This document shows, piece by piece, positions 7,959-64,000 of a stretch of DNA of 64,000 bases (its first letter is position 1; every line of letters begins with the position of its first letter). The DNA is taken from assembly GCA_964532495.1 (NCBI GenBank), contig CAZHJZ010000001.1, positions 108,890-172,889 of the forward strand, in the 5' to 3' direction. A program made the position numbers and the translations under genes. The notes under the pieces are model-generated. The model did no database searches. It was not told the origin of the DNA and saw only the letters and a list, made by a program, of their open reading frames with translations. The DNA comes from an uncultured Candidatus Saccharibacteria bacterium. GTDB lineage: Bacteria; Patescibacteriota; Minisyncoccia; Phycocordibacterales; UBA9973.

Positions 7959-8471
7959 CTAATTTTCTGATTGAATTTGATTAGCGTGATTAATGTGCAG
8001 GAATGGGCTGCCATATGGGTTATACGGAACAGTCTCCGAAGTTGCAGTAGCATCCCGATGGAAAGTTTTTACTTTCGTACCGTCGGATTGTATTACAGTC
8101 TCTACACCTGTTTCTTCAAAATGCGAGGTGCGGATTACCTGTACTATTTCCGGGGCTTTATTTTTTACAAAGTAAGGTCTTGCTGCCTGTGAAGCAGATT
8201 TCAATCCTAAGTAAATAACAAAGCTTATAATGCACAAAACAATTCCCCATCCGCAAAGCAACTTAAGCGTTTCGGGGTCGGTGTTGAGGTATGCTTGTGG
8301 CGGAAATAAAAAGAGGTATATCAAATACATACAAATACAGTGGACAATACCGACGACACGTACAGATACTTCTGCATACCACTCAAGGAATGCGAATATA
8401 CTATTTTTAAAAGTCGAAAAGAAAAGTTTGAAAGTAGGCAAAAAAGACCGGGAGGTAGGATTTTCTTTCAT
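7959..8471 (-). CDS. hypothetical membrane protein (170 aa)
   Basis: ORF with two hydrophobic helices. No recognisable family. Confidence 0.4.
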   Translation of the reverse strand: MKENPTSRSFLPTFKLFFSTFKNSIFAFLEWYAEVSVRVVGIVHCICMYLIYLFLFPPQAYLNTDPETLKLLCGWGIVLCIISFVIYLGLKSASQAARPYFVKNKAPEIVQVIRTSHFEETGVETVIQSDGTKVKTFHRDATATSETVPYNPYGSPFLHINHANQIQSEN

Positions 8472-8522
8472 GAGCGAAATTTGAGGTTTTAAAATATTTC
8501 TCTAATTGAACCACCGGCAGTT

Positions 8523-9098
8523 TTAAAAGTCAAACCAGGAAACCTTTATTTTCTTGGCTCCTTGGCGAAGTATGACGGGGATTTCTCCCGTAAGATCCAC
8601 AATAGACGACGGCTTTCCCTTTTTGCGCGTACCAGAAATATAGAAATCCATCTGGTCGCAAAAATAATCTTGGGCTTCTGCGACCGTAGTTGCAGGAGTT
8701 TTCCCTTGTGGATTTGCAGAAGGCGCCACAAGCGGTCCCGTCTTTTTCAGCAACGTATGGAGAAATGCATCATGCGGAAGACGGAATGCCAGGGATTTAT
8801 TTCCACGATGAAGATACGCAAATGATTTTTGCGGACACGGAAGTATCACTGACACTGGTCCAGGCCACACCGTTTGTAAAAACTTTTTTTGCGATGCAGT
8901 AAGAGTGATGCTGAATTTCTTGAGTTCAGCGAGTGAGGAAATAAGAATAATGAACGGCTTATGATCGTCTCTTCCCTTCACCTCATAAATACGATCAACC
9001 GCTCGCTTTGAAAAAGCGCTGGCAACGATGCCATACAAGGTGTCAGTCGGAAGGACGCCTACGGCGTCCTTCCGCAAAAGCGAAACAATCTCCTCCAT
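8523..9098 (-). CDS. tsaC: L-threonylcarbamoyladenylate synthase, YrdC/Sua5 family
   Basis: Motifs VLPTDTLYGI, KGRDDHKPF, WPGPVS and PSANPQGK are typical of the YrdC domain. Confidence 0.8.
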   Translation of the reverse strand: MEEIVSLLRKDAVGVLPTDTLYGIVASAFSKRAVDRIYEVKGRDDHKPFIILISSLAELKKFSITLTASQKKFLQTVWPGPVSVILPCPQKSFAYLHRGNKSLAFRLPHDAFLHTLLKKTGPLVAPSANPQGKTPATTVAEAQDYFCDQMDFYISGTRKKGKPSSIVDLTGEIPVILRQGAKKIKVSWFDF

Positions 9099-9102
9099 AC
9101 TC

Positions 9103-9225
9103 CTATTTCGCGCGCTTTCCTTTTGGCTTGAGAGCCGGCGGATGCTTGAGATTAAAATCTTTCTTTTCGCGAGCTGGAAAACCTTTTTCTGGCTTTGGCT
9201 CAGGGCTTTTTGTTTTTGATTTCAT
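9103..9225 (-). CDS. unannotated small basic ORF (40 aa, MKSKTKSPEPKPEKGFPAREKKDFNLKHPPALKPKGKRAK), 4 nt upstream of tsaC
   Basis: Manual translation. ATG start, stop TAG 4 nt before the tsaC ATG. Lys/Pro-rich. Below the ORF-track size cutoff. Confidence 0.25.
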   Translation of the reverse strand: MKSKTKSPEPKPEKGFPAREKKDFNLKHPPALKPKGKRAK

Positions 9226-9256
9226 ATGAAGCAAGTATACCACTTTTTGAAGCAAT

Positions 9257-9293
9257 GAAAAAAGAAAAAGCGGCACATGCTGTGCCGCTTTTT
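9257..9293 (-). terminator. intrinsic terminator downstream of the SWIB gene
   Basis: Stem agcggcaca/tgtgccgct, with a T-run on the minus strand. Confidence 0.65.
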
Positions 9294-9310
9294 CACGTTC
9301 AAATTTGTAC

Positions 9311-9622
9311 TTATGAAAGATGCTTTGAAACCAATTTTGTCATTTCAAACATGCTGACTTCTGCCTTGCCTCCGAATACAGCCTTCAAGTTTGCATCTGC
9401 TACGATGTTTCGCTTGTTCTTTGGATTCTGGAGATTGTTCTTCTTGATGTAGACCCAGAGAGCCTTAACAACTTCTGAACGAGGCATAGGACCCTTTCCA
9501 ACGACTGCTTCCAATTCTGCACTCAATTTCATTGGCTTCATGAAAGCTGAATTTGCCTTCTTTGCCACTGTCTTTTTTTCTGCCATAAATGTTTTTCTGC
9601 CGCCGCCCGAAGGCTTGAGCAA
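9311..9622 (-). CDS. SWIB/MDM2 domain protein
   Basis: LSAELEAVVGKGPMPRSEVVKALWVYIKKNNLQNPKNKRNIVADANLKAVFG is a textbook SWIB domain. The track start is TTG; an ATG 12 codons in (9586) is an alternative. Confidence 0.8.
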   Translation of the reverse strand: MLKPSGGGRKTFMAEKKTVAKKANSAFMKPMKLSAELEAVVGKGPMPRSEVVKALWVYIKKNNLQNPKNKRNIVADANLKAVFGGKAEVSMFEMTKLVSKHLS

Positions 9623-9698
9623 ATGTATGATTATCTGGTAACAACTGGATTATAGCACAGAATGTCTGCTTGGGAATAAGCAAGCAAAAGTTTTCCCC

Positions 9699-10268
9699 TT
9701 AGCCGGCAATTGCATCGATCAATTCCCCTAGTCCCTTCTTGGTTTTTGTAGAATACGGAATTACCACGTACCGCCCGATTTTGTCATGGATTTTCTTCAT
9801 CTGCTTGTGATATTCCGATGCTTTAATCTTATCTATCTTATTTGCTGCAACGATAATATTTTTCCCATGCTGCTCAAGAGCTTCTAGCATATCAAGATCA
9901 TCTGCTGTCGGACCAACGACGGCATCAATAATCATAACGACACTTGATTGCTCATATGAAGAATTGAAAAGATAGCTATTGATAAGCGCCTGCAGTTTTG
10001 CGCGCTCCTCAAGAGAAACTTTCGCAAAGCCGTATCCCGGGAGATCGATTAGGTAAAATTTTTCATTAATCAAAAAGATATTGATCTCTTTTGTCTTGCC
10101 AGGAAATGAACTTGTTTCCGCCAAATCATTTACCTTTGTAATACTGTTGATCGTACTGGATTTGCCGACGTTCGATCGTCCAATAAATGCTACATGCGGC
10201 AATTTAGGAGGAAGCATTCCGGGTACCTGCGTCACACCCTTTATGAAGGTTGCTGAAGTGATTTTCAT
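9699..10268 (-). CDS. engB: ribosome biogenesis GTP-binding protein EngB/YsxC
   Basis: P-loop GRSNVGKSSTIN, DLPGYG, AANKIDK. Confidence 0.85.
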   Translation of the reverse strand: MKITSATFIKGVTQVPGMLPPKLPHVAFIGRSNVGKSSTINSITKVNDLAETSSFPGKTKEINIFLINEKFYLIDLPGYGFAKVSLEERAKLQALINSYLFNSSYEQSSVVMIIDAVVGPTADDLDMLEALEQHGKNIIVAANKIDKIKASEYHKQMKKIHDKIGRYVVIPYSTKTKKGLGELIDAIAG

Positions 10269-10394
10269 ATTCCCCAGTATAGCATCCTCATGCCTGTATG
10301 GCTGTATGGGGTAAAAAAAAGTCCCTCAGCCGAAGCCAAGGGAGTTAGGAGGGAGATACGAAAACCAAAAAATTAGAAACAAAAAAATATACTG

Positions 10395-10658
10395 CTAACT
10401 AGCTGCACTGTGAAAAATGAGGCCGATGATCGGACCGATTCGCAGTGTCATATATGCAGCTTGTTTGTTTTCTGAAATGGTAGTTAGTGTGAGGGCAATA
10501 GAGCGGATGATAAATCCTAGTATTTGCATACAAACTCCAAATAATTGGAAGAGTTTACGTGGAAGTACAAAGATTTTTTTGCAGAGAGTCATAAAGAGCC
10601 AAATAAGGCACATAATAAGGCCAATAATAATTAAAGGCGTTTTCAATAAGAATTTCAT
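10395..10658 (-). CDS. small hydrophobic hypothetical protein (87 aa)
   Basis: ORF with two hydrophobic helices. Weak support only. Confidence 0.3.
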   Translation of the reverse strand: MKFLLKTPLIIIGLIMCLIWLFMTLCKKIFVLPRKLFQLFGVCMQILGFIIRSIALTLTTISENKQAAYMTLRIGPIIGLIFHSAAS

Positions 10659-10758
10659 AGCGTGTTCAAGGTTTATGGTGTGTGTAAAAGGGGTTCCGAA
10701 TCAATTTATTAGCATTATACTCCTTTTTGGCTTAAAAGTCAAAACATCCTTATATGGC

Positions 10759-10787
10759 TTGCTATTTTATGAATTTTAAGCTATAGT
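10759..10787 (+). promoter_or_regulatory. sigma70-like promoter for rpsB-tsf (TTGCTA, 17-nt spacer, TATAGT)
   Basis: Hexamers read directly in the sequence. About 140 nt upstream of rpsB. Confidence 0.5.
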
Positions 10788-10889
10788 AGCGGCATCTCCG
10801 TGAAGGACTTCCCTCTATTCGGGACCCTTTGTAGATTAGCTGAAATGCTTAAAAACGGAGCAAGGCTGTCAAAGCCTTTTATTAATTAA

Positions 10890-10913
10890 CTCTGAGGCTT
10901 ATAGACCTCAGAG
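10890..10913 (+). promoter_or_regulatory. perfect 8-bp stem-loop in the rpsB 5' leader, 14 nt before the start codon
   Basis: ctctgagg, loop cttataga, cctcagag. A second small hairpin ggctgtcaaagcc at 10864-10876. Confidence 0.45.
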
Positions 10914-10927
10914 AGAGAAACAGAAGT

Positions 10928-11617
10928 ATGTCAGATCAGACACTTATCGAGGCCCTCTTTAAAGCGGGTTCTCACTACGGATATTCAAAGACTCGTCGTC
11001 ATCCGTCGACAGCAAAGTTCGTATACACTACCAAGAACAAGGTGGACATTATCGATATCGAGCACACAGCAATGCAGCTCGAAGCAGCGACAAATTTCGT
11101 CAAGGAATTGTCAGCTAAAGGCAAAACAGTCCTCTTCGTAGGCGTTAAGCCAGAAGCAAAAGAATCAGTCAAAGCTGGCGCAGAAAAGATCGCTCAGCCA
11201 TTCATCGTTGAACGATGGGTTGGTGGAGTTCTCACTAACTGGCCAGAAATCAAGAAGCGAATCGCTCGCCTCGTTGATCTCAAAGCTAAAAAAGAAGCTG
11301 GCGAACTCGACAAGTACACCAAAAAGGAACGCCTCCTCATCGACGAAGAGATCGCAAAGATGCACAAGCTCTTTTCAGGTCTCGTTGAAATGAAAGGCAA
11401 GCCTGACGCAGTATTCGTCATCGACCCAAAGCGCGAGCACATTGCAGTTACCGAAGCTCACAAGTTGGGAGTTCCAGTTATCGCTCTTGCGAACACTGAC
11501 ACGAACATCAAGGGCATTGAATACCCTATCGTCGGAAATGACGGATCAGTATCAAGCATTGCATACATCGTTGAAACGATCGTTGCAGCATACCGAAGCG
11601 GCGTTTCAAACGGATAA
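10928..11617 (+). CDS. rpsB: 30S ribosomal protein S2
   Basis: HYGYSKTRRHPS, WVGGVLTNW, and an overall S2 profile. Confidence 0.9.
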   Translation: MSDQTLIEALFKAGSHYGYSKTRRHPSTAKFVYTTKNKVDIIDIEHTAMQLEAATNFVKELSAKGKTVLFVGVKPEAKESVKAGAEKIAQPFIVERWVGGVLTNWPEIKKRIARLVDLKAKKEAGELDKYTKKERLLIDEEIAKMHKLFSGLVEMKGKPDAVFVIDPKREHIAVTEAHKLGVPVIALANTDTNIKGIEYPIVGNDGSVSSIAYIVETIVAAYRSGVSNG

Positions 11618-11678
11618 GTGCGCGTAGCGGTCCGAGTGCGTTTATCAAGTAGTTCTTTTTAACTCACACCTTACATAT

Positions 11679-12455
11679 ATGGCAATCACAACAGAACAAA
11701 TCAAGGAATTGCGAGACCAGACAGGCGTCTCAGTCATGCAGTGCAAAAAAGCATTGGAAGAGGCTGACGGCGACATGGAAAAGGCGCTCATGATCCTCAA
11801 AAAGAAATCAAGCGAAATCGCAGCCAAGAAATCTGACCGCGAAGTATCTGAAGGAGTTATCACTGTTGAACGAAACGGCAACAAAGCAGTTGTCGTCGAA
11901 GTTCTCTGCGAAACTGACTTCGTTGCAAAAAACGAAGACTTCACTAACCTCGCAAAAGCTCTCGCTCAGAAAGCTTCAAACGACGGTATCGAAGCTATGC
12001 AGCAGGCTGCTCCAGACATGATCTCTCCTGTCGTCCAGAAGGTTGGTGAAAACATCCAGCTCGGAAAGGCATTTGAAATCACTGGCGACGTTCTCGGATC
12101 ATACATTCACGACGGTAAAAGCGGCGCTATCGTTTCCCTCAAAGGAGGCGACGAAGCTCTCGCAAAGGACATTGCAATGCAGATCACTGCTATGCGTCCT
12201 GAATACACAAAGCGTGAAGACATTCCAGCTGACATGATCGAAAAGGCAAAAGACTTGTTCAAAGAAGAAGTTGAAAACTCAGGAAAGCCAGAAGACATCA
12301 AAGCAAAGATGCTCGAAGGAAAAGTGAACGCCTACTTCAAGGACCTTACACTCATGGACCAGCCATTCTTCAAGAATCCTGATCTCACGATCGCAAAGCT
12401 CCTCGAACAAGGAAAAGCTACTCTTGATAACTACACTCGCGTAAGCATTAAGTAA
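11679..12455 (+). CDS. tsf: elongation factor Ts
   Basis: N-terminal UBA-like segment IKELRDQTGVSVMQCKKALEEADGDMEKAL. Conserved synteny after rpsB. Confidence 0.9.
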   Translation: MAITTEQIKELRDQTGVSVMQCKKALEEADGDMEKALMILKKKSSEIAAKKSDREVSEGVITVERNGNKAVVVEVLCETDFVAKNEDFTNLAKALAQKASNDGIEAMQQAAPDMISPVVQKVGENIQLGKAFEITGDVLGSYIHDGKSGAIVSLKGGDEALAKDIAMQITAMRPEYTKREDIPADMIEKAKDLFKEEVENSGKPEDIKAKMLEGKVNAYFKDLTLMDQPFFKNPDLTIAKLLEQGKATLDNYTRVSIK

Positions 12456-12460
12456 TATTT

Positions 12461-12871
12461 ATGATCGTCATTTTCACTTTATTCGTACTCTCGCTCATAT
12501 CCCTCGTCGGATTAGTAACCTACCAGGCCTACCTTTTGCGCAAGGGCAAGATTTCAGCGTTTGAATACGACCCTGAAGTGGAAAATCCTCTCTCGGAAAC
12601 GAACATAGCAACCTACAAAAATACTCTTTATTCGTGGCTTGAGGCGCGTACCCGCAAATCCGTGTTGTACGCCCTCAAGTTCTCGATTAAGGTTGGGTAC
12701 TTTGTAAAAATGAAATTAGATGCTATAGTATCAGGCGTCCACCGGAAAGCAGCCAGCCATGAGCGAAAGCTTAGGCAGGAAATGAGTTCTGAGGGATCAT
12801 TCTTGAATACGATCGGCGAATACAAGGAAAAGATCATCAAGAAGAAACGTAGCGTGAAGAAAGAAGAGTAA
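12461..12871 (+). CDS. hypothetical protein with N-terminal TM anchor (136 aa)
   Basis: ORF directly after tsf. N-terminal hydrophobic helix, basic C-terminus. Confidence 0.4.
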   Translation: MIVIFTLFVLSLISLVGLVTYQAYLLRKGKISAFEYDPEVENPLSETNIATYKNTLYSWLEARTRKSVLYALKFSIKVGYFVKMKLDAIVSGVHRKAASHERKLRQEMSSEGSFLNTIGEYKEKIIKKKRSVKKEE

Positions 12872-12904
12872 CCAGTGCGACCAACAGCTCCCCGTGGAGC
12901 ACAT

Positions 12905-12980
12905 GCCGCTTTAGCTCAGTTGGTAGAGCAACAATTTTGTAAATTGAAGGTCCCCAGTTCGAATCTGGGAAGCGGCTCCA
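12905..12980 (+). tRNA. tRNA-Thr (anticodon UGU)
   Basis: Manual cloverleaf fold: acceptor gccgctt/aagcggc, D-stem gctc/gagc, anticodon loop tttgtaa, T-arm cccag-ttcgaat-ctggg, discriminator t, encoded CCA. Confidence 0.85.
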
Positions 12981-12990
12981 ATAAAAAAAA

Positions 12991-13020
12991 TAAAACCCCA
13001 CACACGGGGTTTTATTTTTT
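12991..13020 (+). terminator. intrinsic terminator after the tRNA
   Basis: aaaacccca cacacggggtttt, then a T-run. Confidence 0.7.
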
Positions 13021-13443
13021 TAATATCTTAAGACTTTCTTTTAAAGCTCTCGATTGATCCTTGGGTAAATCATTAATGGGAAACCATTCTGCTTGGGATA
13101 CTTCATGATTCTTACTTAATCTTTTTTCGTGTGTTTTACTATAAAACAAAGAAATAGTATCTTGCTTATATTCAATGGAACTTTTATAAGTACCCAATAA
13201 AATAACGTCTCCAAGGTATATATTAAGTTCTTCTTTAACTTCTCTTTTAATGGCTAACTCAGGAATCTCTCGCAGACCGCAACCACCACCAGGAAGTGTC
13301 CAATAATTTCCGGAATAAGATGTTTTAATTAGTAGGAAGTGGTTATCATTTTCGATGAGGCATTTCACTCCCAGGGTATGAGGACGGAAAACAAACCAAT
13401 AGCATTGTCGGATTGAATTAAGGAATGAGTAGATTATATTCAT
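13012..13443 (-). CDS. NUDIX hydrolase
   Basis: Nudix box GGCGLREIPELAIKREVKEELNI (Gx5Ex7REVxEE). Confidence 0.8.
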   Translation of the reverse strand: MNIIYSFLNSIRQCYWFVFRPHTLGVKCLIENDNHFLLIKTSYSGNYWTLPGGGCGLREIPELAIKREVKEELNIYLGDVILLGTYKSSIEYKQDTISLFYSKTHEKRLSKNHEVSQAEWFPINDLPKDQSRALKESLKILKK

Positions 13444-13458
13444 TGTTTATACATTTAT

Positions 13459-14202
13459 TTAATTTTCTGAAAACCATCCATATAGTCGAAACCGTTTCCA
13501 AAAAGAAAAAAGTTCAAGGAGGGTTTCGAAATATGCCTTGGCATGGATTCTCGAGTTTGGAATGTCTTTCCAAGTAATACCTATTTCATACACTGGGATA
13601 TCATGCTCCCGCGCGATAAGGAGGAGCTCAATATCAAATCCCCAGCCGTGAGCGGATGACTCGTGTACCAAAATATCACGAGTTGCTTTTGTGCAGAGTT
13701 TAAAGCCGCACTGAGTGTCTTTGATGCCCGGCAGTACCAGAAATTGTATCAGCATATTCCCCAACCTACCCAAAATCTGCCGTTCTCTCGTTTGCGGAGT
13801 TTCGATAACCGATCCTGTTACGTGCCGCGAACCAATAGCCAGTCCTGATAGAGATTCTGCAAGAGGCACAAAAAGCTTTTCTACATTCTCTATACGCGTA
13901 GCATTGTCAGCATCCATAAACAGAACATACTCGCCCTTAGCTTCACGCATACCGTTAATAACGGCCATTCCTTTGCTGTTTCCCTTTTCCACAGGAATGA
14001 TGCCAAGATCCAGGATTCTGATCTCTGGGTATGTTTTTGTTACGTTAGAAACAACGTCGGCGGTATTATCCGTACAGTTATTGAGCACGACGAGCAACTC
14101 CCAATCGTAGCCCTTGGTCTTTAGATACTCGCAAGTAGCGCGCAGCGTCGTCTCGATGCGCGATTCTTCGTTGTATGCAGGTATGACAACTGATAGGAAC
14201 AT
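13459..14202 (-). CDS. family-2 glycosyltransferase, DPM1/polyprenyl-phosphate sugar synthase-like
   Basis: VVIPAYNEE, DNT, FMDADN, CGFKL motifs. Confidence 0.75.
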   Translation of the reverse strand: MFLSVVIPAYNEESRIETTLRATCEYLKTKGYDWELLVVLNNCTDNTADVVSNVTKTYPEIRILDLGIIPVEKGNSKGMAVINGMREAKGEYVLFMDADNATRIENVEKLFVPLAESLSGLAIGSRHVTGSVIETPQTRERQILGRLGNMLIQFLVLPGIKDTQCGFKLCTKATRDILVHESSAHGWGFDIELLLIAREHDIPVYEIGITWKDIPNSRIHAKAYFETLLELFSFWKRFRLYGWFSEN

Positions 14203-14203
14203 A

Positions 14204-15706
14204 TTATTTCTTGATTCGAGCTATGACTAATGTACACGACCCTGCTGTTTTTTGAAATATTACTTCCTCTTTTTGGGCAATCTCGGCGCGAACGGAAGAT
14301 TCTTCTGCTTTGCACATAGTCTCTTGGCCTGGAGTGCATGCATGAAGCTCGCAAGTATCATACGCAACATATTGAGCATGAGAGCGCTCTTTCTTGTACA
14401 CAGCGCTAAAATGTTCCCAGGTATTGTATGCGGGTATTAATGACACATGCGAATATGGAGCTATGATGGGTGTGGCGCTTATCACTGTCGCATTCGATGT
14501 TCCCAGCAGTCCTGTATAAAAAGAGTGATACTGACTAACTTCAAGTTTATCATTCTCAAAATAAAACATATTCGAACCTATCCATATGAGTGTGGCGGCG
14601 CCAAGTACGCCAGCAAGATACTGTATGTATTTTCCAGATTTAAACATTCCAATAAAACCATACGCAGCCAATAGCGCGAGCGCTGGCATAACTGGGATGA
14701 TGTATCTGAATTCTTTATGAGGCTGAATTGAAAAATAAATGAGGAAAAACACTATGCTAAGAATTGAAAAAATAATTGCTTTTCCTTTTTGAGTTCCAAA
14801 ACCTTTTTCGCGAACGCAGCTCATGCCCGCAAATAATAGGCCTGGGAGCATCCAAAGTACCCAGAGATTGTGATTGATAATCTGGTTAAGGTAAAACATG
14901 CTATCGCCCTGGTAGAGCCATAAAAAGCCTGTAATCATGCCTGAGGCGTCTGAGAGCACCGAAAAGGCATTGCCGTAGAAATAGATATTTGAGGCGAAGT
15001 ATATAAATGCAGGAATTATAAAACCAAGGCATAGGTATACGCCCTTCCATACCAGGCTTCTAAAACCATCCCATGATTTCCATAAGTTTGGTGTCTCGCT
15101 GATTATCAATGCCAACCCTGCAACTGGCAGTAACATGCCAAGCGGAAAACGAGCAGTAAACGCGAGGCCAATCAGTATTCCTAGCCAGAATATTCTGCCT
15201 TCCACAAACAGCCACAGAGCTGCTGCAACAGCCAAGACTTCAATAACTTCAACCATTGGAGTGTGCGAGTATGCAAAAAACGGTGTTGAAAACGATAGAA
15301 GCAGAGCTGCTACGACTCCGACAAATGCACTTACTTTCTCACCTGCCCGATAAATACAGTACAAAGCAACAAGTGAAAAAAGAACTAAAAGAATAGTAGC
15401 GCTTATTTCCAAAAATGCGGGCGTGCTCAAAGAAAACGGTGCGAGGATAAGAGGCCATAGTACTGGCCTAAAATACTCCCATAAGCCGCTGTGGCCGCTA
15501 TGGGCAATGTATGTCGCCATTCCTAGATATACGCTTCCATCCCAGCTCGGACGAGTCGGCACAAGTACATACATGATTCGGGCAATCAGGGATCCCAATA
15601 TCACAACAGAAACCGCCACGCTAGGCGTGAGCTTCTTTTTCCAATTACTTAAAGACAACATAATTGTAACCGATAAAATTAGTAACCATGCTTCCGGCAA
15701 TGCCAA
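14204..15706 (-). CDS. GT-C fold membrane glycosyltransferase (ArnT/PMT_2-like), about 12 TM
   Basis: Polytopic. The N-terminal loop PSWDGSVYLGMATYIA resembles the GT39/GT83 D-E/D loop. It sits next to the GT2 donor synthase and GtrA. The N-terminal 62 nt overlap the upstream gene in another frame, so the start may be an internal Met. Confidence 0.65.
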   Translation of the reverse strand: MALPEAWLLILSVTIMLSLSNWKKKLTPSVAVSVVILGSLIARIMYVLVPTRPSWDGSVYLGMATYIAHSGHSGLWEYFRPVLWPLILAPFSLSTPAFLEISATILLVLFSLVALYCIYRAGEKVSAFVGVVAALLLSFSTPFFAYSHTPMVEVIEVLAVAAALWLFVEGRIFWLGILIGLAFTARFPLGMLLPVAGLALIISETPNLWKSWDGFRSLVWKGVYLCLGFIIPAFIYFASNIYFYGNAFSVLSDASGMITGFLWLYQGDSMFYLNQIINHNLWVLWMLPGLLFAGMSCVREKGFGTQKGKAIIFSILSIVFFLIYFSIQPHKEFRYIIPVMPALALLAAYGFIGMFKSGKYIQYLAGVLGAATLIWIGSNMFYFENDKLEVSQYHSFYTGLLGTSNATVISATPIIAPYSHVSLIPAYNTWEHFSAVYKKERSHAQYVAYDTCELHACTPGQETMCKAEESSVRAEIAQKEEVIFQKTAGSCTLVIARIKK

Positions 15707-38371: not shown

Positions 38372-40672
38372 ATGAAGGAACGAATCTACACTTTCATTCG
38401 AGATCACCGAGACCGACTGATCATCGGCGTCTGTTGCGTGGTCGCACTCGGAGCAGCCACAGCAACCTTCATTCAACATAGTAAAACCTCGAACGCTGTA
38501 GAAAATGAATCCACTAAGGCTTCATATCAAGTTGCAAATGAAAGTACGATTCCCGTCCCCGATGTTCCCGTAAATATCTCATTTGAAAATATTCCCGACG
38601 ATTCATTCCTACCAGCAAAAACAGGAAAACTCATCCGCGTTAACTTAGTCACGATGGCGCTCAATCGATATGAGAATGGCCAGCTGGCCGGAGAACCAAT
38701 GCCCATTCTTGCAAAAGGAAAGCTTGGCTCATTTTGGGAAACTCCGGGCGGAAGCTACCCTATCATCGACTCGCAAGAAGAATACTATTCGGAAAAAGCC
38801 GGTGCGTTTTTCCCATATACGCTGCACCTCTTTGGAAACTACATGATCCATGGTGAGCCACATGACAAAAACAACCGCTTGGTCAAAACCACGAGCGGCG
38901 GCATTAGACTTTCCAACGAAGATGCTAAAACTATATATGTTTGGTCTGACGCCGACACTCGCGTTTCAGTCTACAGCGACAGCAAACTCAAGCCGCAGAC
39001 GCTTTCATCTGAATCTACGTACATTACGGAAACAGGAGAAACCTTGCCGAAAGTAACAGCCGAAAGTTACATTGTTGCAGATCTTGATACTGGTGAAGTG
39101 ATCCTTCACAGCAATAAAGATGTGCCTCACCCTATCGCCTCTGTTTCGAAACTCATGACGGCGCTTGTATCGACTGACACGATGAATCAATTCGAGTTCG
39201 CTACCGTTTCAAAAAAAGCTACGCAAGTATACAGCGTCAACAAATTTGCCGTCGGAGAGAAGATCGCACTTTCCAATCTCATCTACCCCCTCCTCCTTCC
39301 TTCAAGCAATGTCGCAGCAGAAATAATCGCCGAACACGCAGGACGAGACACCTTCATGTCTGAGATGAATGCTGAAGCACTAAAGCTTGGCATGACAAAA
39401 ACCCACTACGACGATCCGTCAGGACTTTCCGCAAAAAACGTTTCAACGGCATCTGATCTTTTTTTACTGACGCAAGCAATCTTCAAAGACCGGCCGTTTA
39501 TTTTTAATATTACTCTTGTCCCATCCTACAGCGCGCAAGGACACTCATGGAAAAACATCAGCCAGTTCATGAAAGTGCCTGGCTACATCGGCGGTAAAAG
39601 CGGACAGACAGACGAAGCGCGGCAATCAAACGTCGCAATCTTCAAGCTTCCCCTTTCAGAAGCCGGCACACGAAACATCGCAATCATTGTGCTTCGCTCA
39701 AACGACCGCTACACCGACACTATGAAAATCTTTAATTTCGTCAAAAGCCGCGTAGTATACGGAAGCAGCAAGAATGTCACGATCACCGACGGCAACGATC
39801 TTTCAAGCAACATCGTGCTTACCTTCGTCGGAGATATGATGCTCGATCGCGGGGTGAAGTTTTCGGTCAGAAAAAATTTTGGAGGCGACTACTCAAGGCT
39901 TTTCGCAAACATGGGTCTGATTCAGAAAAGCGATCTTGCCTTTGCAAACCTCGAAGGTCCAGTGTCAGACAAGGGCGACGACCTCCACGATCTCTATTCG
40001 TTCCGCATGGATCCGAGCGTTCTTGAAAACGTCCGTTCAGCAGGCTTTGACATCCTTTCATTTGCGAACAATCACGTTGGAGACTGGGGTCACGAAGCGT
40101 TTGATGACAGCATGGCGCGCATGGAAAATGCCGGCCTCAAATACATTGGTGCAGGAGAAACAAAAGAACAGGCCGTTCAGCCTGTCATAGAAACAATCAA
40201 AGGAACAAAATTCGGCTTCATCGGATTTACCGATGTCGGACCAGACAAGCTTGCCGCAACAAGCATGGATTCTGGTGTCCTCCTCGCAAGCGATCCAGAT
40301 TTTACAAAGATCATCGCCAATGCAAAGAAACAAGCAGATGTCCTGATCGTCTCATTCCACTGGGGCGTAGAATACAAAGAGCATACTACGCGGCAGACCG
40401 AACTAGCTAAAAAAGCAATCGATGCCGGTGCAAATATTATTATCGGTACGCACCCGCATGTCGTTCAAGATGTAGAAATATACAATGGCGGCCTTATCGC
40501 CTACTCGCTTGGAAACTTTATTTTTGATCAAACCATGTCTGCTGAAACAATGCGCGGCATGCTTCTCCAAGTTACCTTTGACGCACGCGACAAATCTCTC
40601 AAACGATATGACAAGTATACAGTCAACATTTCAAACCAGTTTCAGCCGCAAGTTCCTGAGCTGGTGAGATAG
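38372..40672 (+). CDS. tri-domain cell-wall protein: L,D-transpeptidase-like (YkuD) domain, S11 D-Ala-D-Ala carboxypeptidase domain, CapA/PgsA-type metallophosphatase domain
   Basis: YkuD-like YMIHGEP...TSGGIRL (the Cys of SHGCIR is Gly here). SxxK ASVSKLMTA, SxN LPSSNVAAE, KTG-like GGKSGQT. CapA motifs VLTFVGDMML, FANLEGP, HWGVEY, IIGTHPHVVQ. Confidence 0.7.
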   Translation: MKERIYTFIRDHRDRLIIGVCCVVALGAATATFIQHSKTSNAVENESTKASYQVANESTIPVPDVPVNISFENIPDDSFLPAKTGKLIRVNLVTMALNRYENGQLAGEPMPILAKGKLGSFWETPGGSYPIIDSQEEYYSEKAGAFFPYTLHLFGNYMIHGEPHDKNNRLVKTTSGGIRLSNEDAKTIYVWSDADTRVSVYSDSKLKPQTLSSESTYITETGETLPKVTAESYIVADLDTGEVILHSNKDVPHPIASVSKLMTALVSTDTMNQFEFATVSKKATQVYSVNKFAVGEKIALSNLIYPLLLPSSNVAAEIIAEHAGRDTFMSEMNAEALKLGMTKTHYDDPSGLSAKNVSTASDLFLLTQAIFKDRPFIFNITLVPSYSAQGHSWKNISQFMKVPGYIGGKSGQTDEARQSNVAIFKLPLSEAGTRNIAIIVLRSNDRYTDTMKIFNFVKSRVVYGSSKNVTITDGNDLSSNIVLTFVGDMMLDRGVKFSVRKNFGGDYSRLFANMGLIQKSDLAFANLEGPVSDKGDDLHDLYSFRMDPSVLENVRSAGFDILSFANNHVGDWGHEAFDDSMARMENAGLKYIGAGETKEQAVQPVIETIKGTKFGFIGFTDVGPDKLAATSMDSGVLLASDPDFTKIIANAKKQADVLIVSFHWGVEYKEHTTRQTELAKKAIDAGANIIIGTHPHVVQDVEIYNGGLIAYSLGNFIFDQTMSAETMRGMLLQVTFDARDKSLKRYDKYTVNISNQFQPQVPELVR

Positions 40673-55614: not shown

Positions 55615-55622
55615 TACCTCAT

Positions 55623-55656
55623 AAAAGAGCGGCGCCTTCGGCGCCGCTCTTTTATA
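55623..55656. terminator. strong bidirectional terminator
   Basis: aaaagagcggcgcc ttcg gcgccgctctttt. Confidence 0.8.
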
Positions 55657-55659
55657 TTC

Positions 55660-60863: not shown

Positions 60864-61175
60864 ATGTATGTGTTGATTATAAAAATAAAAAAGCGCACCA
60901 GAAATGTTGATTTGTACCTATAAAGTATAGCATGTTTTCAATACAAAAACCAGTACAAAATACCGGTTTTAAGCTTGCAAAATAAGGGTCTTTTAACTCC
61001 ATCGGAGTCTCTGAGGGGACGTCTTACGGCACATTGTTCTCGATAGGCGTATTGTTATCTACAACAATACTTTCATTTGCTACAATTTCGCCATCAGTGC
61101 CTGCATTCATGCAACACCCCACGCCACGCCATCACCAGTGTTTAGAGACACTAGCACAGTGAACATAGAAAACTA

Positions 61176-61210
61176 ATAAAAAAGCCAGTCATATTGCTAT
61201 GCTGGCTTTG
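61176..61210 (-). terminator. intrinsic terminator downstream of the T9SS-CTD gene
   Basis: aagccagtc atattgctatg ctggctt, with a T-run on the minus strand. Confidence 0.65.
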
Positions 61211-61238
61211 TAAAAATATATCCACTAAACTAAATTAA

Positions 61239-62930
61239 TTATTCAATTATTATCTTCTTTGCAGTACTGTTACCTGCTTTTAGGAAGTACATTCCTTTTG
61301 GCCAGTCTACTTGCATTTGTTGTTGACCGGAAGTCAGTCGAACCGGTTTCAGTTTTTTACCAACAATGTCGTATACCTCTATAATACCGATATTCCGATA
61401 ATCTTCACACGCAACAGTAAATGTTCCATTGTTTGGACTGGGATATACAGCAAAAGTAGTCTTTGCAACTGTAGCAACGCTTGTTGGCGTGGCAATAGCT
61501 GGGTATGTTTCAACTCTCAGTGTTGTTGAATCGCCGCCGAACATTTCAGCTCTTATACCTGAAAAAAATTCATATATAAGATTGTTGTATCTCAACTCCA
61601 TATCTACAGTTGTCTGAGCAGGGATTTTACCCGCTTGAATAAACTGCAATGCGCGAGTTGAAATTTGCAACTCATTATCTGAAGGATCGGGGTTAAACAC
61701 CTCAATCCTTGAATTCTGCACGATTGTATCTTCAGGTGCATGGCCTAATTGGAAAGGGTTTGTTGCAGTACTACTGATGTAAATAAACGGCATCCGCATA
61801 TCGGGGCCAATATTTACCTGTCCCGGTTGTGCCGGAATATGAGTGTGTACTGTAAACTTTTCTCTCCAAAAGTTGCAAGAACTTATTTCCCACTGATTTC
61901 CATTTACAATAAGGAAATTGAATTGGGTAAAAATGGTTAGCAGCGCCGAGTCTGGGGCGCGGGGAAACAAGTTGCGGAAAAATGGCATCATACCATCTAT
62001 CCCAAGACTATCCGTCATTTTCATGCCTTCGTAAAAATCGTGAGCTATCACTGGGTTCCCTGTGTCAATGATAAACGCTGGTGAAACAAAACTGAATGTT
62101 AGTGTTTGGCCTGGTAATAATATAATTTTACCGTCCATATCACTACTTTCAAATTGTTTTACCTCGTCATATATGATTGGATCCCTAGTAAAAAACTCAG
62201 AGTAAAATTTGTTTGTTACGTGAGATAACTCGTAACATTCGCCGTTTTCTTTTGTGTAACAATACCGGCGTGATGAATCAAGCCACTCCGAATGCTCCCG
62301 GACATCTTGTGCTGACATGTGATCTTGCGGTACACCCGGAATTGTATCTAGGTACCGCGGTTCTCCATCATCTGGATCATTCAATATAGTGTCACCGTTA
62401 AGAAACACTTCACCGACAGTATGGCCTGATAAAATCACCGTGCGAAGCGAATCCAGCGGAATCATTTGCGTCTCCTTGGTAAGATGATCGAAGAAAATCT
62501 GACGCTCTCCGCACATTTGCGAAGCATTGCTCAAGAAAAACGCACATGGAGAATACTGTTTGCGAGCAAGTAATGTATCAAATCCGTTTATGCCGTAGGT
62601 GCTTGGTGCAGGCCTTCTGCAGTGTACAGTGGAAGGACTTTTTACAATCCTGCCATATTCTCTTATATATGCCATAGGGTCGCCAGTGGCAATCATATGG
62701 TTAAGGAAAGATGGTTTATCAGCAAAAATTAAGTCACCTGGCTTATCGAACTTTGTTAACATATAGAACATTTTGGGAAATGTATCAGTGTTCGTAATCC
62801 TGACTGAAAAGCTGTCACCAGGGTTTGGAACACTAGTGCCAAAACCGTTGAATAAGTTAACAACTTGTGCATTTACAGAAATAGCAAAAAACAAAGCGGC
62901 AACTGCCAACAAAAGGTTATTTTTTTTCAT
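61239..62930 (-). CDS. secreted protein with N-terminal signal peptide and T9SS type-A C-terminal sorting domain (Por_Secre_tail-like)
   Basis: MKKNNLLLAVAALFFAISVNAQ signal. The C-terminal roughly 75 aa, FAVYPSPNNGTFTV...IIEVYDIVGKKL...GMYFLKAGNSTAKKIIIE, match the T9SS CTD consensus. Confidence 0.7.
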   Translation of the reverse strand: MKKNNLLLAVAALFFAISVNAQVVNLFNGFGTSVPNPGDSFSVRITNTDTFPKMFYMLTKFDKPGDLIFADKPSFLNHMIATGDPMAYIREYGRIVKSPSTVHCRRPAPSTYGINGFDTLLARKQYSPCAFFLSNASQMCGERQIFFDHLTKETQMIPLDSLRTVILSGHTVGEVFLNGDTILNDPDDGEPRYLDTIPGVPQDHMSAQDVREHSEWLDSSRRYCYTKENGECYELSHVTNKFYSEFFTRDPIIYDEVKQFESSDMDGKIILLPGQTLTFSFVSPAFIIDTGNPVIAHDFYEGMKMTDSLGIDGMMPFFRNLFPRAPDSALLTIFTQFNFLIVNGNQWEISSCNFWREKFTVHTHIPAQPGQVNIGPDMRMPFIYISSTATNPFQLGHAPEDTIVQNSRIEVFNPDPSDNELQISTRALQFIQAGKIPAQTTVDMELRYNNLIYEFFSGIRAEMFGGDSTTLRVETYPAIATPTSVATVAKTTFAVYPSPNNGTFTVACEDYRNIGIIEVYDIVGKKLKPVRLTSGQQQMQVDWPKGMYFLKAGNSTAKKIIIE

Positions 62931-63058
62931 ACAAAATTTTTATGGGGTTGTTTAAAAGGGTGTAGAGACTGACTTACACTATGCCACAAAAATGCATTTT
63001 TTACAAGGGGACAACAAAATACCCTGATAATTCAGGGTATTTTGACTATGATGATTTA

Positions 63059-64000
63059 TTAAATTTCAGAAACAGGAGCAGGGGTGGGGGTGGGGGTGGG
63101 AGGTGTCTCTGGCTGACTTTGCTCAACGGGTGGGCTTGCGGGTTCATCAGACGGAGTTTCTGCGGTTACAGTATCGTCAACCACTGGAATGACTTCTGGA
63201 TCAGGAGTAGGAGTAGGTCCTGGAGTAGGCTCTGGTGTGGGCTCTGGTGTTGGTGTTGGTGTTGGTGTTGGTGTTGGTGTTGGTGTTGGTGTTGGTGTTG
63301 AAACTTGCTGCTGTGGCAGTAATTGTTTCAATTGGTGAAGCTCGGCTCGAGTGATACATTCGTCTGGATAGCCTTCCTCTGATAAACAAACCTCTCGAGT
63401 AAATATTCGCGTGATACCGTTGCTTGCACTTCCCAACCATGTACTGATCGATGACAAGAAAGTATTGCTTGGCGTGGTGAGAGTATCCATTGATGCTACT
63501 TTCAAATTGAGTTCTTGGACTGACTTGATAAGAAGCGGGATAAATGTCTTGTAATCAACCATCATATATCCATCTGTTCGATGACCTACTGCTTCTGGAT
63601 AAAGAGGTTCGACTTGCTGAGCCAGAACCCCAGTATGCTGCTTGCCGTTATCGTTAATGATTGACTGATCATATGTAAAGTCAACAACGCGGATATCTTT
63701 CAATACGTCCAAACCATAGCCAGTATCAACTATATTCTGCTTTGTGCGCTGGTCTGAAGGAGCAGTTGTATCGATAGTGTTTGTTCCGACATAGAGCGTA
63801 GCTGCTCCGGAACCGCTGGTAGCATTGCTAATCTTATTGTTATCGCCATCAACACCAATACGGAGACCTGTAAGGAAAAAGTTTTGTGCCTCTGCATCAT
63901 TAATATATAAAGCATATTCCGCTCCTCCGGTTGCCTGGAGTGACGCACTGCTGAAGTACAAACCATAGACATCCTGAGCAGTTAGAGAAGGAATGTCTGT
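63059..64000 (-). CDS. tail-fibre-like surface protein with S74 intramolecular chaperone domain and (TP)n linker; N-terminus outside the window
   Basis: SDQRTKQNIVDTGYGLDVLKDIRVVDFTYDQ...GVLAQQVEPLYPEAV...GYMMVDYKTFIPLLIKSVQEL matches the endosialidase/tail-spike C-terminal chaperone signature. The frame stays open to the window edge upstream of the listed TTG. Confidence 0.7.
   Translation of the reverse strand, partial: TDIPSLTAQDVYGLYFSSASLQATGGAEYALYINDAEAQNFFLTGLRIGVDGDNNKISNATSGSGAATLYVGTNTIDTTAPSDQRTKQNIVDTGYGLDVLKDIRVVDFTYDQSIINDNGKQHTGVLAQQVEPLYPEAVGHRTDGYMMVDYKTFIPLLIKSVQELNLKVASMDTLTTPSNTFLSSISTWLGSASNGITRIFTREVCLSEEGYPDECITRAELHQLKQLLPQQQVSTPTPTPTPTPTPTPTPTPEPTPEPTPGPTPTPDPEVIPVVDDTVTAETPSDEPASPPVEQSQPETPPTPTPTPAPVSEI
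63081..63100 (+). repeat. G-quadruplex-type motif GGGGTGGGGGTGGGGGTGGG
   Basis: Read directly. Encodes PPTPTP on the opposite strand. Confidence 0.6.
63245..63300. repeat. (TGGTGT)n hexanucleotide microsatellite, about 9 units, encoding (TP)n on the minus strand
   Basis: Read directly. Confidence 0.9.

What the first reader, a model, noticed from the sequence alone, without database searches (positions are those of the whole stretch)
63059..64000. Tail-fibre-like surface protein with phage-type S74 auto-chaperone domain and (TP)n linker, adjacent to a T9SS-CTD protein
The C-terminal half of this edge-truncated ORF carries a textbook endosialidase/tail-spike intramolecular chaperone domain: SDQRTKQNIV...DFTYDQ...GVLAQQVEPLYPEAV...VDYKTFIPLLIKSVQEL. 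In phages this domain is normally the extreme C-terminus, where it drives trimerisation and then self-cleaves at the Ser of SDxxxK. Here it is followed by about 120 more residues including (TP)11 and a Pro/Glu-rich tail. The N-terminal visible part (YINDAEAQNF...LYVGTNTIDT) looks like beta-helix fibre repeats. In a streamlined, possibly episymbiotic bacterium, a phage-tail-fibre-derived trimeric adhesin is a strong candidate for a host-attachment organelle. The neighbouring T9SS-CTD cargo gene (61239-62930) suggests a surface-display locus.
Basis: partly seen in the sequence, partly recalled or inferred. Interest (0 to 1): 0.62.

Follow-up and report, generated by a model that had tools for sequence, protein, structure and literature searches.

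The report
Phage-like self-cleaving surface fibre, CPR bacterium
The window ends inside a normal chromosomal gene of a tiny candidate-phyla-radiation (CPR) bacterium that encodes a cell-surface fibre built like a phage tail fibre, with an extra conserved tail piece seen here in bacteria labelled CPR but not in phages, which makes it a plausible but untested host-attachment protein.

Summary
On the minus strand, 63059-64000 is the 3' end (313 codons) of an intact ORF that runs off the window. It hits Pfam Peptidase_S74 (48 bits, cut-off 22), keeps the SDxxxK Ser/Lys dyad, and its model matches the MyRF, endoNF and GA-1 chaperone structures.

It is not a prophage gene or a pseudogene. All neighbours are housekeeping genes, synteny holds in four related genomes labelled Saccharibacteria or Paceibacterota, and dN/dS is 0.03-0.04 for the S74 domain.

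Full-length orthologues (783-871 aa) have five parts:
- an N-terminal hydrophobic leader;
- a conserved Cys-loop domain;
- a YadA-like head, as in trimeric autotransporter adhesins;
- a shaft;
- the S74 domain.

The S74 domain is not terminal. A conserved ~60-aa module with two cysteines follows it, then a Pro-rich tail that includes (TP)9. This module has no Pfam model. It occurs in at least 1849 protein clusters, directly after S74. It was found in none of 90 viral S74 ORFs, no match in 50,697 phage records extended through it, and the named Flavobacteriia homologues lack it.

The closest characterised analogue is the Bdellovibrio MAT fibre family. I read it as a new variant of a known kind. 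Adhesion and cleavage are inferred, not shown.

The parts
63758..64000 (-). Last 81 visible residues of the fibre shaft (aa 1-81 of the fragment). The gene continues beyond the window edge; orthologues suggest about 550-640 more codons upstream.
   Evidence: Open frame to the window edge. 64-79% identical to orthologues L003/L004/L005, dN/dS 0.15-0.19. Low-confidence monomer model. Orthologues are 783-871 aa.
63491..63757 (-). Peptidase_S74 intramolecular chaperone/autoprotease domain (aa 82-170): catalytic Ser82 and Lys87 in SDQRTK, a beta-rich core, and a long helix at 150-175. Predicted cleavage site is ...TTAP|SDQR.
   Evidence: Pfam 48 bits. A PDB profile search hits 8jov, 6f45, 7dc3 and 3gud. 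pLDDT is above 90, and Foldseek finds 7dc3 at probability 1.0, then 3gw6 and 3gud. Ser and Lys are invariant. dN/dS is 0.03-0.04.
63305..63490 (-). Post-S74 module (aa 171-232): a helix carrying WLGSASNGI, then a beta-hairpin carrying Cys205 and Cys215, then the helix ITRAELHQLKQLL. In this analysis its named carriers are all CPR, and no Pfam, NCBIfam or PDB sequence match covers it.
   Evidence: Nothing but S74 is found by Pfam at E<=1. PDB profile matches stop at the long helix. The model shows H179-192, E203-206, E214-217 and H218-227. A profile search finds 1849 clusters at E<=1e-3, lying directly after S74. It is absent from 90 viral S74 ORFs and from the named Flavobacteriia homologues. 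dN/dS is 0.035-0.12.
63062..63304 (-). Low-complexity Pro/Thr/Glu-rich tail (aa 233-313; 29 Pro and 20 Thr in 81 aa), including (TP)9. There is no LPXTG motif and no hydrophobic segment.
   Evidence: Composition and the TP run. The tail is variable between orthologues. No LPXTG, and the maximum KD19 is 0.93. The InlK and AaBglC 'hits' are low-complexity matches.
63245..63300 (.). Perfect hexanucleotide microsatellite (TGGTGT)x9.3 that encodes the (TP)9 run.
   Evidence: Tandem Repeats Finder: 100% matches, score 112. Orthologues lack it.
63010..63049 (-). Terminator-like hairpin about 20 nt after the stop codon.
   Evidence: RNA fold -19.6 kcal/mol, z = -6.05, 0 of 200 shuffles as good. The consensus terminator scan did not list it.
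61239..62930 (-). Conserved neighbour: a 563-aa secreted protein with a T9SS-type C-terminal sorting domain. I list it as context, not as a proven part of the system.
   Evidence: Por_Secre_tail 34.1 bits (cut-off 27) and TIGR04183 34.2 bits (cut-off 23). Same position in L002, L003 and L004. 53-59% identity against 94.6% for GyrB.

Best explanation
The window holds the C-terminal third of a chromosomal gene for a trimeric cell-surface fibre of a Patescibacteria (CPR) bacterium.

Shown:
- The protein carries a bona fide S74 intramolecular chaperone/autoprotease domain with an intact Ser-Lys dyad.
- A conserved two-cysteine module and a Pro-rich tail follow that domain.
- Full-length orthologues add a hydrophobic N-terminal leader, a conserved about 100-aa Cys-loop domain, a YadA-like head with 14-residue beta-roll repeats, and a long shaft.
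- The gene is under purifying selection and sits among housekeeping genes.

Inferred mechanism:
1. The chain is exported by Sec through the N-terminal leader. It stays attached to the cell through that leader or through the conserved N-terminal domain.
2. Three chains are registered from the C-terminus by the S74 domain. Here S74 takes the place of the beta-barrel anchor that nucleates trimerisation in trimeric autotransporters.
3. Once the trimer is folded, Ser82 with Lys87 cuts the TAP|S bond. This releases a 232-aa fragment (S74, module and tail) and exposes the distal tip of the fibre.
4. The mature fibre binds a surface structure of a host or partner cell.

The module and tail are an addition seen here only in proteins whose named members are CPR. 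The paired cysteines at both ends of the protein fit an extracytoplasmic location. The role of the module is the least certain step. My best guess is that it stabilises or spaces the chaperone trimer outside a monoderm envelope, or gives the released fragment a function of its own.
For: - S74 identity.
- Catalytic dyad invariant.
- Orthologue architecture: leader helix at 9-30 and KD19 of 2.4; YadA_head by Pfam; Foldseek matches to AtaA, BpaC, BoaA and CbpF heads at probability 1.0.
- Chromosomal, syntenic, no phage genes.
- Purifying selection.
- The fibre (69-77% identity) evolves faster than GyrB (94.6%).
- The module is widespread, sits directly after S74, and is absent from viruses and from the named Flavobacteriia homologues.
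- Experimental precedent for chromosomal S74 fibres that self-cleave at the Ser and act in prey handling: Bdellovibrio MATs, PMC10769870.
Against: - No experiment and no trimer model. Cleavage, trimerisation, surface location and ligand are all inferred.
- The shaft (orthologue aa 316-635; window aa 1-80) is modelled at low confidence.
- Whether the N-terminal leader is cleaved or acts as an anchor is unresolved.
- The adhesive-looking YadA head lies near the N-terminus. With N-terminal anchoring it would sit close to the cell, which is awkward for an adhesin.
- The part that would be discarded (S74 and module) is the most conserved. That also fits a retained function.
- The N-terminus of the window's own gene was not recovered.
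Confidence: 0.6

Rival explanations
1. C-terminally tethered fibre. The Pro-rich tail and the Cys module act as a wall- or S-layer-spanning base, replacing the beta-barrel anchor of trimeric autotransporters. The YadA-like head then projects distally. S74 cleavage either does not occur in vivo or serves to shed the fibre.
For: - The extension is present in the CPR-labelled homologues and absent from the diderm Flavobacteriia homologues.
- Pro/Thr-rich segments resemble the wall-spanning regions of Gram-positive surface proteins; the only non-S74 database hits are to such a region of InlK.
- The head is N-proximal, as in trimeric autotransporters.
- S74 and the module are the most conserved parts.
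Against: - There is no LPXTG motif, transmembrane segment or known wall-binding domain at the C-terminus.
- The tails are acidic and poorly conserved.
- The catalytic Ser and Lys are invariant, which argues that cleavage happens and would sever this tether.
- Orthologues have a strongly hydrophobic N-terminal helix.
Confidence: 0.15
2. Two-product precursor. S74 cleavage yields a cell-bound fibre and also a functional trimeric C-terminal fragment (chaperone, module and variable tail). In many relatives the tail carries an Ig-like domain, and the fragment acts separately, for example as a soluble or matrix-bound binding factor.
For: - About a quarter of sampled family members carry an Ig-like-type tail after the module: 40 of 150 by a sequence-motif count, and PF16403 in 4 of the 10 members scanned with Pfam.
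- The module is under strong constraint.
- In MyRF, S74-type cleavage produces two functional pieces (my knowledge; MyRF ICA fold match).
Against: In the window protein the tail is pure low complexity with a recent microsatellite. No binding domain is present in this member.
Confidence: 0.15
3. Ordinary phage or prophage tail fibre, or a decaying remnant of one.
For: 31 PHROG tail-fibre or tail-spike families and 329 phage records match the S74 part.
Against: - No phage gene lies in 64 kb of window or in the flanks of four syntenic genomes. The neighbours are PheT, GyrB, ThrRS and DnaE.
- Phage matches cover only the S74 domain.
- The intact ORF has dN/dS of 0.03-0.19.
- There is a signal-type N-terminus and a YadA head.
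Confidence: 0.03

Closest known systems
Bdellovibrio bacteriovorus MAT (mosaic adhesive trimer) fibres, S74 subgroup, e.g. Bd3182 (PMC10769870)
   Same: Chromosomal, non-prophage, multi-copy fibre genes of a bacterium that lives on other bacteria. They have a signal peptide, a conserved N-terminal domain of about 130 aa, a trimeric shaft, and a C-terminal S74 with an SDxxxK motif. Self-cleavage at the Ser was shown experimentally, and the fibres are surface-located with a role in prey handling.
   Different: The paper describes the 13 S74 MATs as terminating in the S74 domain; Bd3182 has 140 aa from the catalytic Ser to its end, against 232 aa here. The present family adds a two-Cys module and a Pro-rich or Ig-like tail. 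It has a YadA-type head and belongs to a monoderm CPR lineage. Homology of the two N-terminal domains was not tested.
Phage S74 / C-terminal intramolecular chaperone domain (CIMCD) proteins: K1F endosialidase (3GW6), GA-1 neck appendage (3GUD), T5 L-shaped tail fibre, PblB-type fibres
   Same: The same domain by HMM and by fold, and the same Ser-Lys motif.
   Different: In viruses the domain ends a median of 3 aa before the stop codon, and none carries the post-S74 module. Viral N-termini attach to virions, not to cells.
Myelin regulatory factor (MyRF) ICA domain (7DC3)
   Same: It is the best structural match (probability 1.0). As in the window protein, the S74-type domain is internal and followed by more polypeptide.
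   Different: MyRF is a eukaryotic ER-membrane transcription factor whose downstream part is a transmembrane segment. Here no transmembrane segment follows.
Trimeric autotransporter adhesins (YadA, BoaA, BpaC, AtaA, CbpF)
   Same: The orthologues have a YadA_head left-handed beta-roll with 14-residue repeats: Pfam hits and Foldseek probability 1.0 with 25-37% identity.
   Different: There is no YadA_anchor beta-barrel. The C-terminal trimerisation unit is S74 instead. The host cell has no outer membrane (by lineage; my knowledge).
Flavobacteriia 'tail fiber domain-containing proteins' (YadA_head + S74)
   Same: The same YadA head plus S74 combination, and detectable full-length homology.
   Different: In these proteins S74 is terminal (9-42 aa after the domain in the ten that carry a full S74 match), with no module and no Pro-rich tail. 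They have classical Bacteroidota signal peptides.

Membership tests
Peptidase_S74 / intramolecular chaperone auto-processing domain | HMM match above the curated threshold | tested here: met
   PF13884, 48 bits against a cut-off of 22, E=1.6e-12, aa 82-138.
Peptidase_S74 / intramolecular chaperone auto-processing domain | Catalytic Ser-Lys dyad in an S-D-x-x-x-K motif | tested here: met
   S82-D-Q-R-T-K87. Ser and Lys are nearly invariant in 83 sequences and invariant in 52.
Peptidase_S74 / intramolecular chaperone auto-processing domain | Fold of the solved chaperone domains | tested here: met
   pLDDT above 90 for aa 81-170. Foldseek finds 7dc3 (E=1e-4, probability 1.0), 3gw6 and 3gud.
Peptidase_S74 / intramolecular chaperone auto-processing domain | Autoproteolytic release after trimer folding | not testable with these tools
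   Needs expression of wild type against S82A, or proteomics.
Phage-type terminal S74 (as in tail fibres and spikes) | The domain is the extreme C-terminus of the protein | tested here: not met
   141 aa follow the S74 helix. The viral median is 3 aa. PHROG matches mostly end at the profile ends. Phage CDSs end 3-5 codons after the match.
Prophage tail fibre | Embedded among phage structural or lysis genes | tested here: not met
   Housekeeping genes only, in the window and in syntenic loci.
Trimeric autotransporter adhesin | YadA-like head repeats | tested here: met
   Met in the orthologues, not in the visible window part. Pfam YadA_head 32-101 bits. Foldseek matches TAA heads.
Trimeric autotransporter adhesin | C-terminal YadA_anchor beta-barrel translocator | tested here: not met
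   No such Pfam hit in the window fragment or the orthologues. The C-terminus is S74, module and tail.
Bdellovibrio-type MAT fibre | Signal peptide, conserved N-terminal domain, trimeric shaft and S74 end, encoded chromosomally in several copies | tested here: inconclusive
   The architecture is analogous, and relatives carry a second paralogue nearby. Sequence homology to MAT N-terminal domains was not tested because no MAT sequence was available.
T9SS cargo | C-terminal Por_Secre_tail sorting domain | tested here: not met
   The fibre has none. Only the neighbouring gene has it.
Sortase-anchored Gram-positive surface protein | LPXTG motif, hydrophobic segment and basic tail after a Pro-rich region | tested here: not met
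   No LPXTG-like motif. Maximum KD19 is 0.93. The protein ends ...PAPVSEI.

The most novel reading that the evidence does not exclude
The post-S74 module and its variable tail are not a passive appendix. They would be a Patescibacteria invention that turns the normally disposable phage-type chaperone into a second functional product, or into an envelope-docking base. One precursor would then give both a host-binding fibre and a trimeric C-terminal unit, which carries an Ig-like domain in many relatives. Together these would form part of the still unknown attachment apparatus of episymbiotic CPR cells.
Probability: 0.2. Interest if true: 0.7.

Novelty: new variant of a known kind. Interest (0 to 1): 0.5.

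Why it matters
How ultrasmall CPR/Patescibacteria recognise and hold on to their host cells is largely unknown. [quoted passage not shown]

This gene belongs to a large and fast-evolving family, with at least 1849 clusters for the module alone. The family has a clear, testable biochemical signature: a Ser/Lys self-cleavage site, a YadA-type head, and a module seen here in CPR-labelled proteins but not in phages or Flavobacteriia. Its one characterised analogue, the Bdellovibrio MAT fibres, mediates prey handling.

The family therefore offers concrete candidates for host-range determinants. It also contains a defined, unannotated protein module that deserves a family model. I found no paper linking S74 domains to CPR in the searchable library.

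Tried and rejected
- **Recovering the N-terminus of the window's own gene.** An exact look-up of the neighbouring CTD protein gave only a 2.4-kb Logan contig. The GyrB look-up found nothing, although the cluster table shows the source contig is a 200,139-bp NCBI record. I used orthologues instead.
- **First homology search with the single fragment.** It gave only one hit because of the word index. Profile queries were needed.
- **InlK, AaBglC and AcfD hits.** I rejected them as low-complexity TP/Pro matches.
- **Vibrio phage F86 match reaching query aa 218.** I rejected it because it runs past the end of the annotated CDS.
- **Consensus terminator scan.** It missed the hairpin. Folding showed it.
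- **afdb50 fold search**, intended to give organism names. The library was unavailable.
- **Cluster look-up of ten family members.** It returned no organism names.
- **Literature searches for S74, endosialidase or tail fibre together with CPR or Saccharibacteria, and for T9SS with Saccharibacteria.** Nothing relevant came back.
- **Monomer AlphaFold models.** They do not resolve the shaft, so the beta-helix claim stays open.

Full report
**1. What is in the sequence**

The feature lies on the minus strand. The stop codon is at 63059-63061 and the frame stays open to the window edge at 64000, so 313 codons are visible. Pfam finds Peptidase_S74 at aa 82-138 (E=1.6e-12, 48 bits, cut-off 22) and nothing else at E<=1. 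NCBIfam and a PDB sequence search add only low-complexity matches of the Pro/Thr tail to InlK and similar proteins.

The catalytic motif is S82-DQRT-K87. In an 83-sequence alignment S82, D83, R85 and K87 are nearly invariant. In 52 full-length relatives the Ser and Lys are invariant.

A profile of the region hits four solved structures: tail fibre 8jov, the phage S16 long tail fibre 6f45, the MyRF ICA domain 7dc3 and the GA-1 chaperone 3gud. Every one of these matches stops at the end of the long helix.

An AlphaFold model of aa 1-240 gives pLDDT above 90 for aa 81-170. Foldseek places it with MyRF ICA (7dc3, probability 1.0), the endoNF chaperone (3gw6) and GA-1 (3gud). The S74 assignment is therefore secure.

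**2. The extension**

After the long helix (about aa 150-175) come 141 more residues. They fall into two parts.

- Residues 171-232 are a conserved module: a helix carrying WLGSASNGI, a beta-hairpin carrying Cys205 and Cys215, and a further helix ITRAELHQLKQLL. The model gives pLDDT 77-87 for the hairpin and last helix. The module is 73-85% identical in the two closer orthologues, with dN/dS of 0.035-0.12.
- Residues 233-313 are low complexity: 29 Pro and 20 Thr in 81 residues. They contain (TP)9, not (TP)11, encoded by a perfect (TGGTGT)x9.3 microsatellite at 63245-63300. Orthologues lack this run. There is no LPXTG motif and no hydrophobic segment.

**3. How unusual the extension is**

In phages the S74 domain really is terminal.

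- 31 PHROG families match the protein. In the 25 listed, the match stops at protein aa 142-176, and in nearly all of them within about 0-20 positions of the phage profile's end.
- 329 phage records match, and none covers the module. In two examples the annotated CDS ends 3-5 codons after the match. A third, apparently longer match runs past its CDS end and is spurious.
- In 80 IMG/VR loci I found 90 S74 ORFs. The median distance from domain end to stop is 3 aa, only one exceeds 60 aa, and none hits the module profile.

In cellular metagenomic proteins the picture is the opposite.

- A 61-position profile of the module alone, searched against 1.84 billion cluster representatives, finds 1849 proteins at E<=1e-3 and 560 at E<=1e-10. 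Their lengths reach 2892 aa.
- In the best 150, the module lies directly after an S74 domain, with a median gap of 0. It does so in 118 of them, and most of the other 32 are fragments.
- A tail with a median of 105 aa follows the module. By a motif count on the 150, it is Ig-like-type in 40, Pro-rich in 33, other low complexity in 63, and under 30 aa in 14. Pfam confirmed PF16403 in 4 of the 10 members I scanned.

Among full-length homologues that carry organism names, the split is clean. The Nomurabacteria, Paceibacterota and 'Patescibacteria group' members have the module profile match plus a tail, leaving 109-148 aa after S74. The Pacebacteria member is below the profile threshold but has a comparable 141-aa two-Cys extension. 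In the ten Flavobacterium, Winogradskyella, Hwangdonia, Gelidibacter and Flavobacteriaceae members with a full S74 match, S74 ends 9-42 aa before the stop, and none has the module.

It marks a subfamily whose named members are all Patescibacteria. Exclusivity to that lineage was not tested.

**4. The whole protein**

The window's own N-terminus could not be recovered. A scan of GTDB species genomes found three orthologues. Two are in MAGs labelled uncultured Candidatus Saccharibacteria (L003, 77% identity; L005, 53%). One is labelled Candidatus Paceibacterota (L004, 69%). A JGI contig (L002) carries a frameshifted copy. GyrB of the window and of L004 are 94.6% identical, so these are close relatives.

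The orthologues are 783-871 aa. Their alignment and the 52-sequence consensus show, in order:

- a hydrophobic leader (predicted helix 9-30, KD19 of 2.4) ending in ...VFAA/AP;
- a conserved domain of about 100 aa with a Cys loop (PPxGGY..LDPxCAPGxxxC..GWxLTGNxGT..NFIGTTD..DFVIKTN);
- YadA_head repeats (Pfam);
- a long shaft;
- S74, the module and the tail.

The model of orthologue P0257 has pLDDT 81-98 for aa 130-310, with strands every 14 residues. Foldseek matches that part to the heads of the trimeric autotransporters AtaA, BpaC, BoaA and CbpF (probability 1.0, up to 37% identity). It matches the C-terminal part to MyRF ICA. There is no YadA_anchor.

The protein is thus a chimera: a head of the trimeric autotransporter type joined to a phage-type C-terminal trimerisation chaperone. 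The shaft is not resolved by monomer models, so the 'beta-helix' reading of window aa 1-80 stays unconfirmed.

**5. Context**

The 64-kb window encodes only housekeeping functions: LeuRS, RpoB/C, RpoD, DnaG, RNase R, SMC, DnaE, ThrRS, NUDIX proteins, Ham1, GyrB and peptidoglycan enzymes. It has one tRNA gene.

The order PheT - fibre - CTD protein - GyrB is kept in L002, L003 and L004. This is not a prophage.

The gene is not a pseudogene. dN/dS against L003 and L004 is 0.03-0.04 for S74 and 0.15-0.19 for the shaft. dS is near saturation, so these values are rough.

The window has a single S74 gene. The relatives carry a second paralogue nearby that is missing from both syntenic sites in the window. 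The fibre (69-77% identity) and the neighbouring CTD protein (53-59%) diverge much faster than GyrB. That pattern is expected for exposed surface proteins.

A strong hairpin follows the stop codon (-19.6 kcal/mol, z = -6). The fibre is probably the end of its own transcription unit rather than co-transcribed with the CTD gene.

**6. Mechanism**

The inferred steps are marked as such in the best explanation. In brief:

1. The chain is exported by Sec.
2. It is retained through the N-terminal leader or the conserved N-terminal domain.
3. Three chains are registered from the C-terminus by S74, which replaces the barrel anchor of trimeric autotransporters.
4. The chain cuts itself at TAP|S82 and releases a 232-aa fragment.
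5. The mature fibre binds a partner-cell surface.

The closest experimental precedent is the Bdellovibrio MAT family (PMC10769870). Of its 21 chromosomal fibres, 13 terminate in an S74 domain with an SDxxxK motif. Bd3182 cleaves itself at S782, and the S782A mutant does not. All 21 share an N-terminal domain of about 130 aa after the signal peptide. Family members were found on the predator surface and in the vesicle left at the point of prey invasion.

Two rivals remain open. In one, the module and tail tether the fibre by its C-terminus through the wall. In the other, the released C-terminal fragment is itself functional. The prophage and pseudogene readings are rejected.

**7. Novelty and score**

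Databases already name relatives 'tail fiber domain-containing protein', and cellular S74 fibres are known from Bdellovibrio. The kind is therefore known.

Three things appear to be undescribed in the searchable literature and in Pfam:

- the internal position of S74;
- the conserved two-Cys module, and its large family;
- the combination of a YadA head with S74 in monoderm CPR cells.

I rate it a new variant of a known kind, with interest 0.5. It is a concrete and testable candidate for CPR host attachment, but every functional statement is still inference.

Noticed in passing
window 61239-62930 (-): This 563-aa protein has a Bacteroidota-style signal peptide (…AISVNA|Q) and a T9SS type-A sorting domain above the curated cut-offs. 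It sits in a genome whose closest relatives are labelled Saccharibacteria or Paceibacterota, where no outer membrane or T9SS is expected. It is conserved next to the fibre gene in three relatives and diverges fast (53-59% identity against 94.6% for GyrB). Horizontal transfer from a Bacteroidota host, or a different use of the CTD fold, are possibilities.
   Followed up: partly
window 1567-5220 (-): The leucyl-tRNA synthetase is 1217 aa long and has a NUDIX hydrolase domain inserted at aa 657-773, after the editing domain.
   Followed up: no
window 63245-63300: A perfect (TGGTGT)x9.3 microsatellite encodes (TP)9 inside the fibre's tail. Orthologues lack it, so it is probably a recent slippage expansion and may vary in length between strains.
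   Followed up: yes
window 63010-63049 (-): A strong A-tract/U-tract hairpin follows the fibre's stop codon (-19.6 kcal/mol, z = -6). It looks like a bidirectional terminator. The consensus terminator scan did not report it.
   Followed up: yes
L003 12831-15203; L004 8706-10850; L002 17206-18929; window 60864-61238 and 55615-55659: Related genomes carry a second YadA-head/S74 paralogue a few kb away, at two different sites. The window has neither copy, so fibre gene content differs between close relatives.
   Followed up: partly
proteins P0113, P0120, P0129, P0138, P0145, P0150, P0187, P0205: Many giant proteins (1.4-2.9 kaa) that carry S74 plus the module begin with a conserved HTH-like motif that looks cytoplasmic (…EAA…G…DYI..LCR.GKI.G…GR.WYV) rather than with a signal peptide. 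This suggests a different membrane topology in that branch.
   Followed up: no
window 38372-40672 (+): A single 766-aa ORF fuses YkuD (L,D-transpeptidase), Peptidase_S11 (D-Ala-D-Ala carboxypeptidase) and PGA_cap domains.
   Followed up: no
L002 (JGI 3300056825 contig) 8308-15013: The fibre, the CTD gene and gyrB are each split by frameshifts in this contig, while they are intact in the window, L003 and L004. Assembly errors are the most likely cause, rather than pseudogenes.
   Followed up: partly
L005 10950-12679: Downstream of the L005 fibre gene there is no ORF of 100 aa or more in 1.7 kb, up to the contig end. The CTD-protein gene is not seen there, so synteny breaks in this more distant relative.
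   Followed up: no
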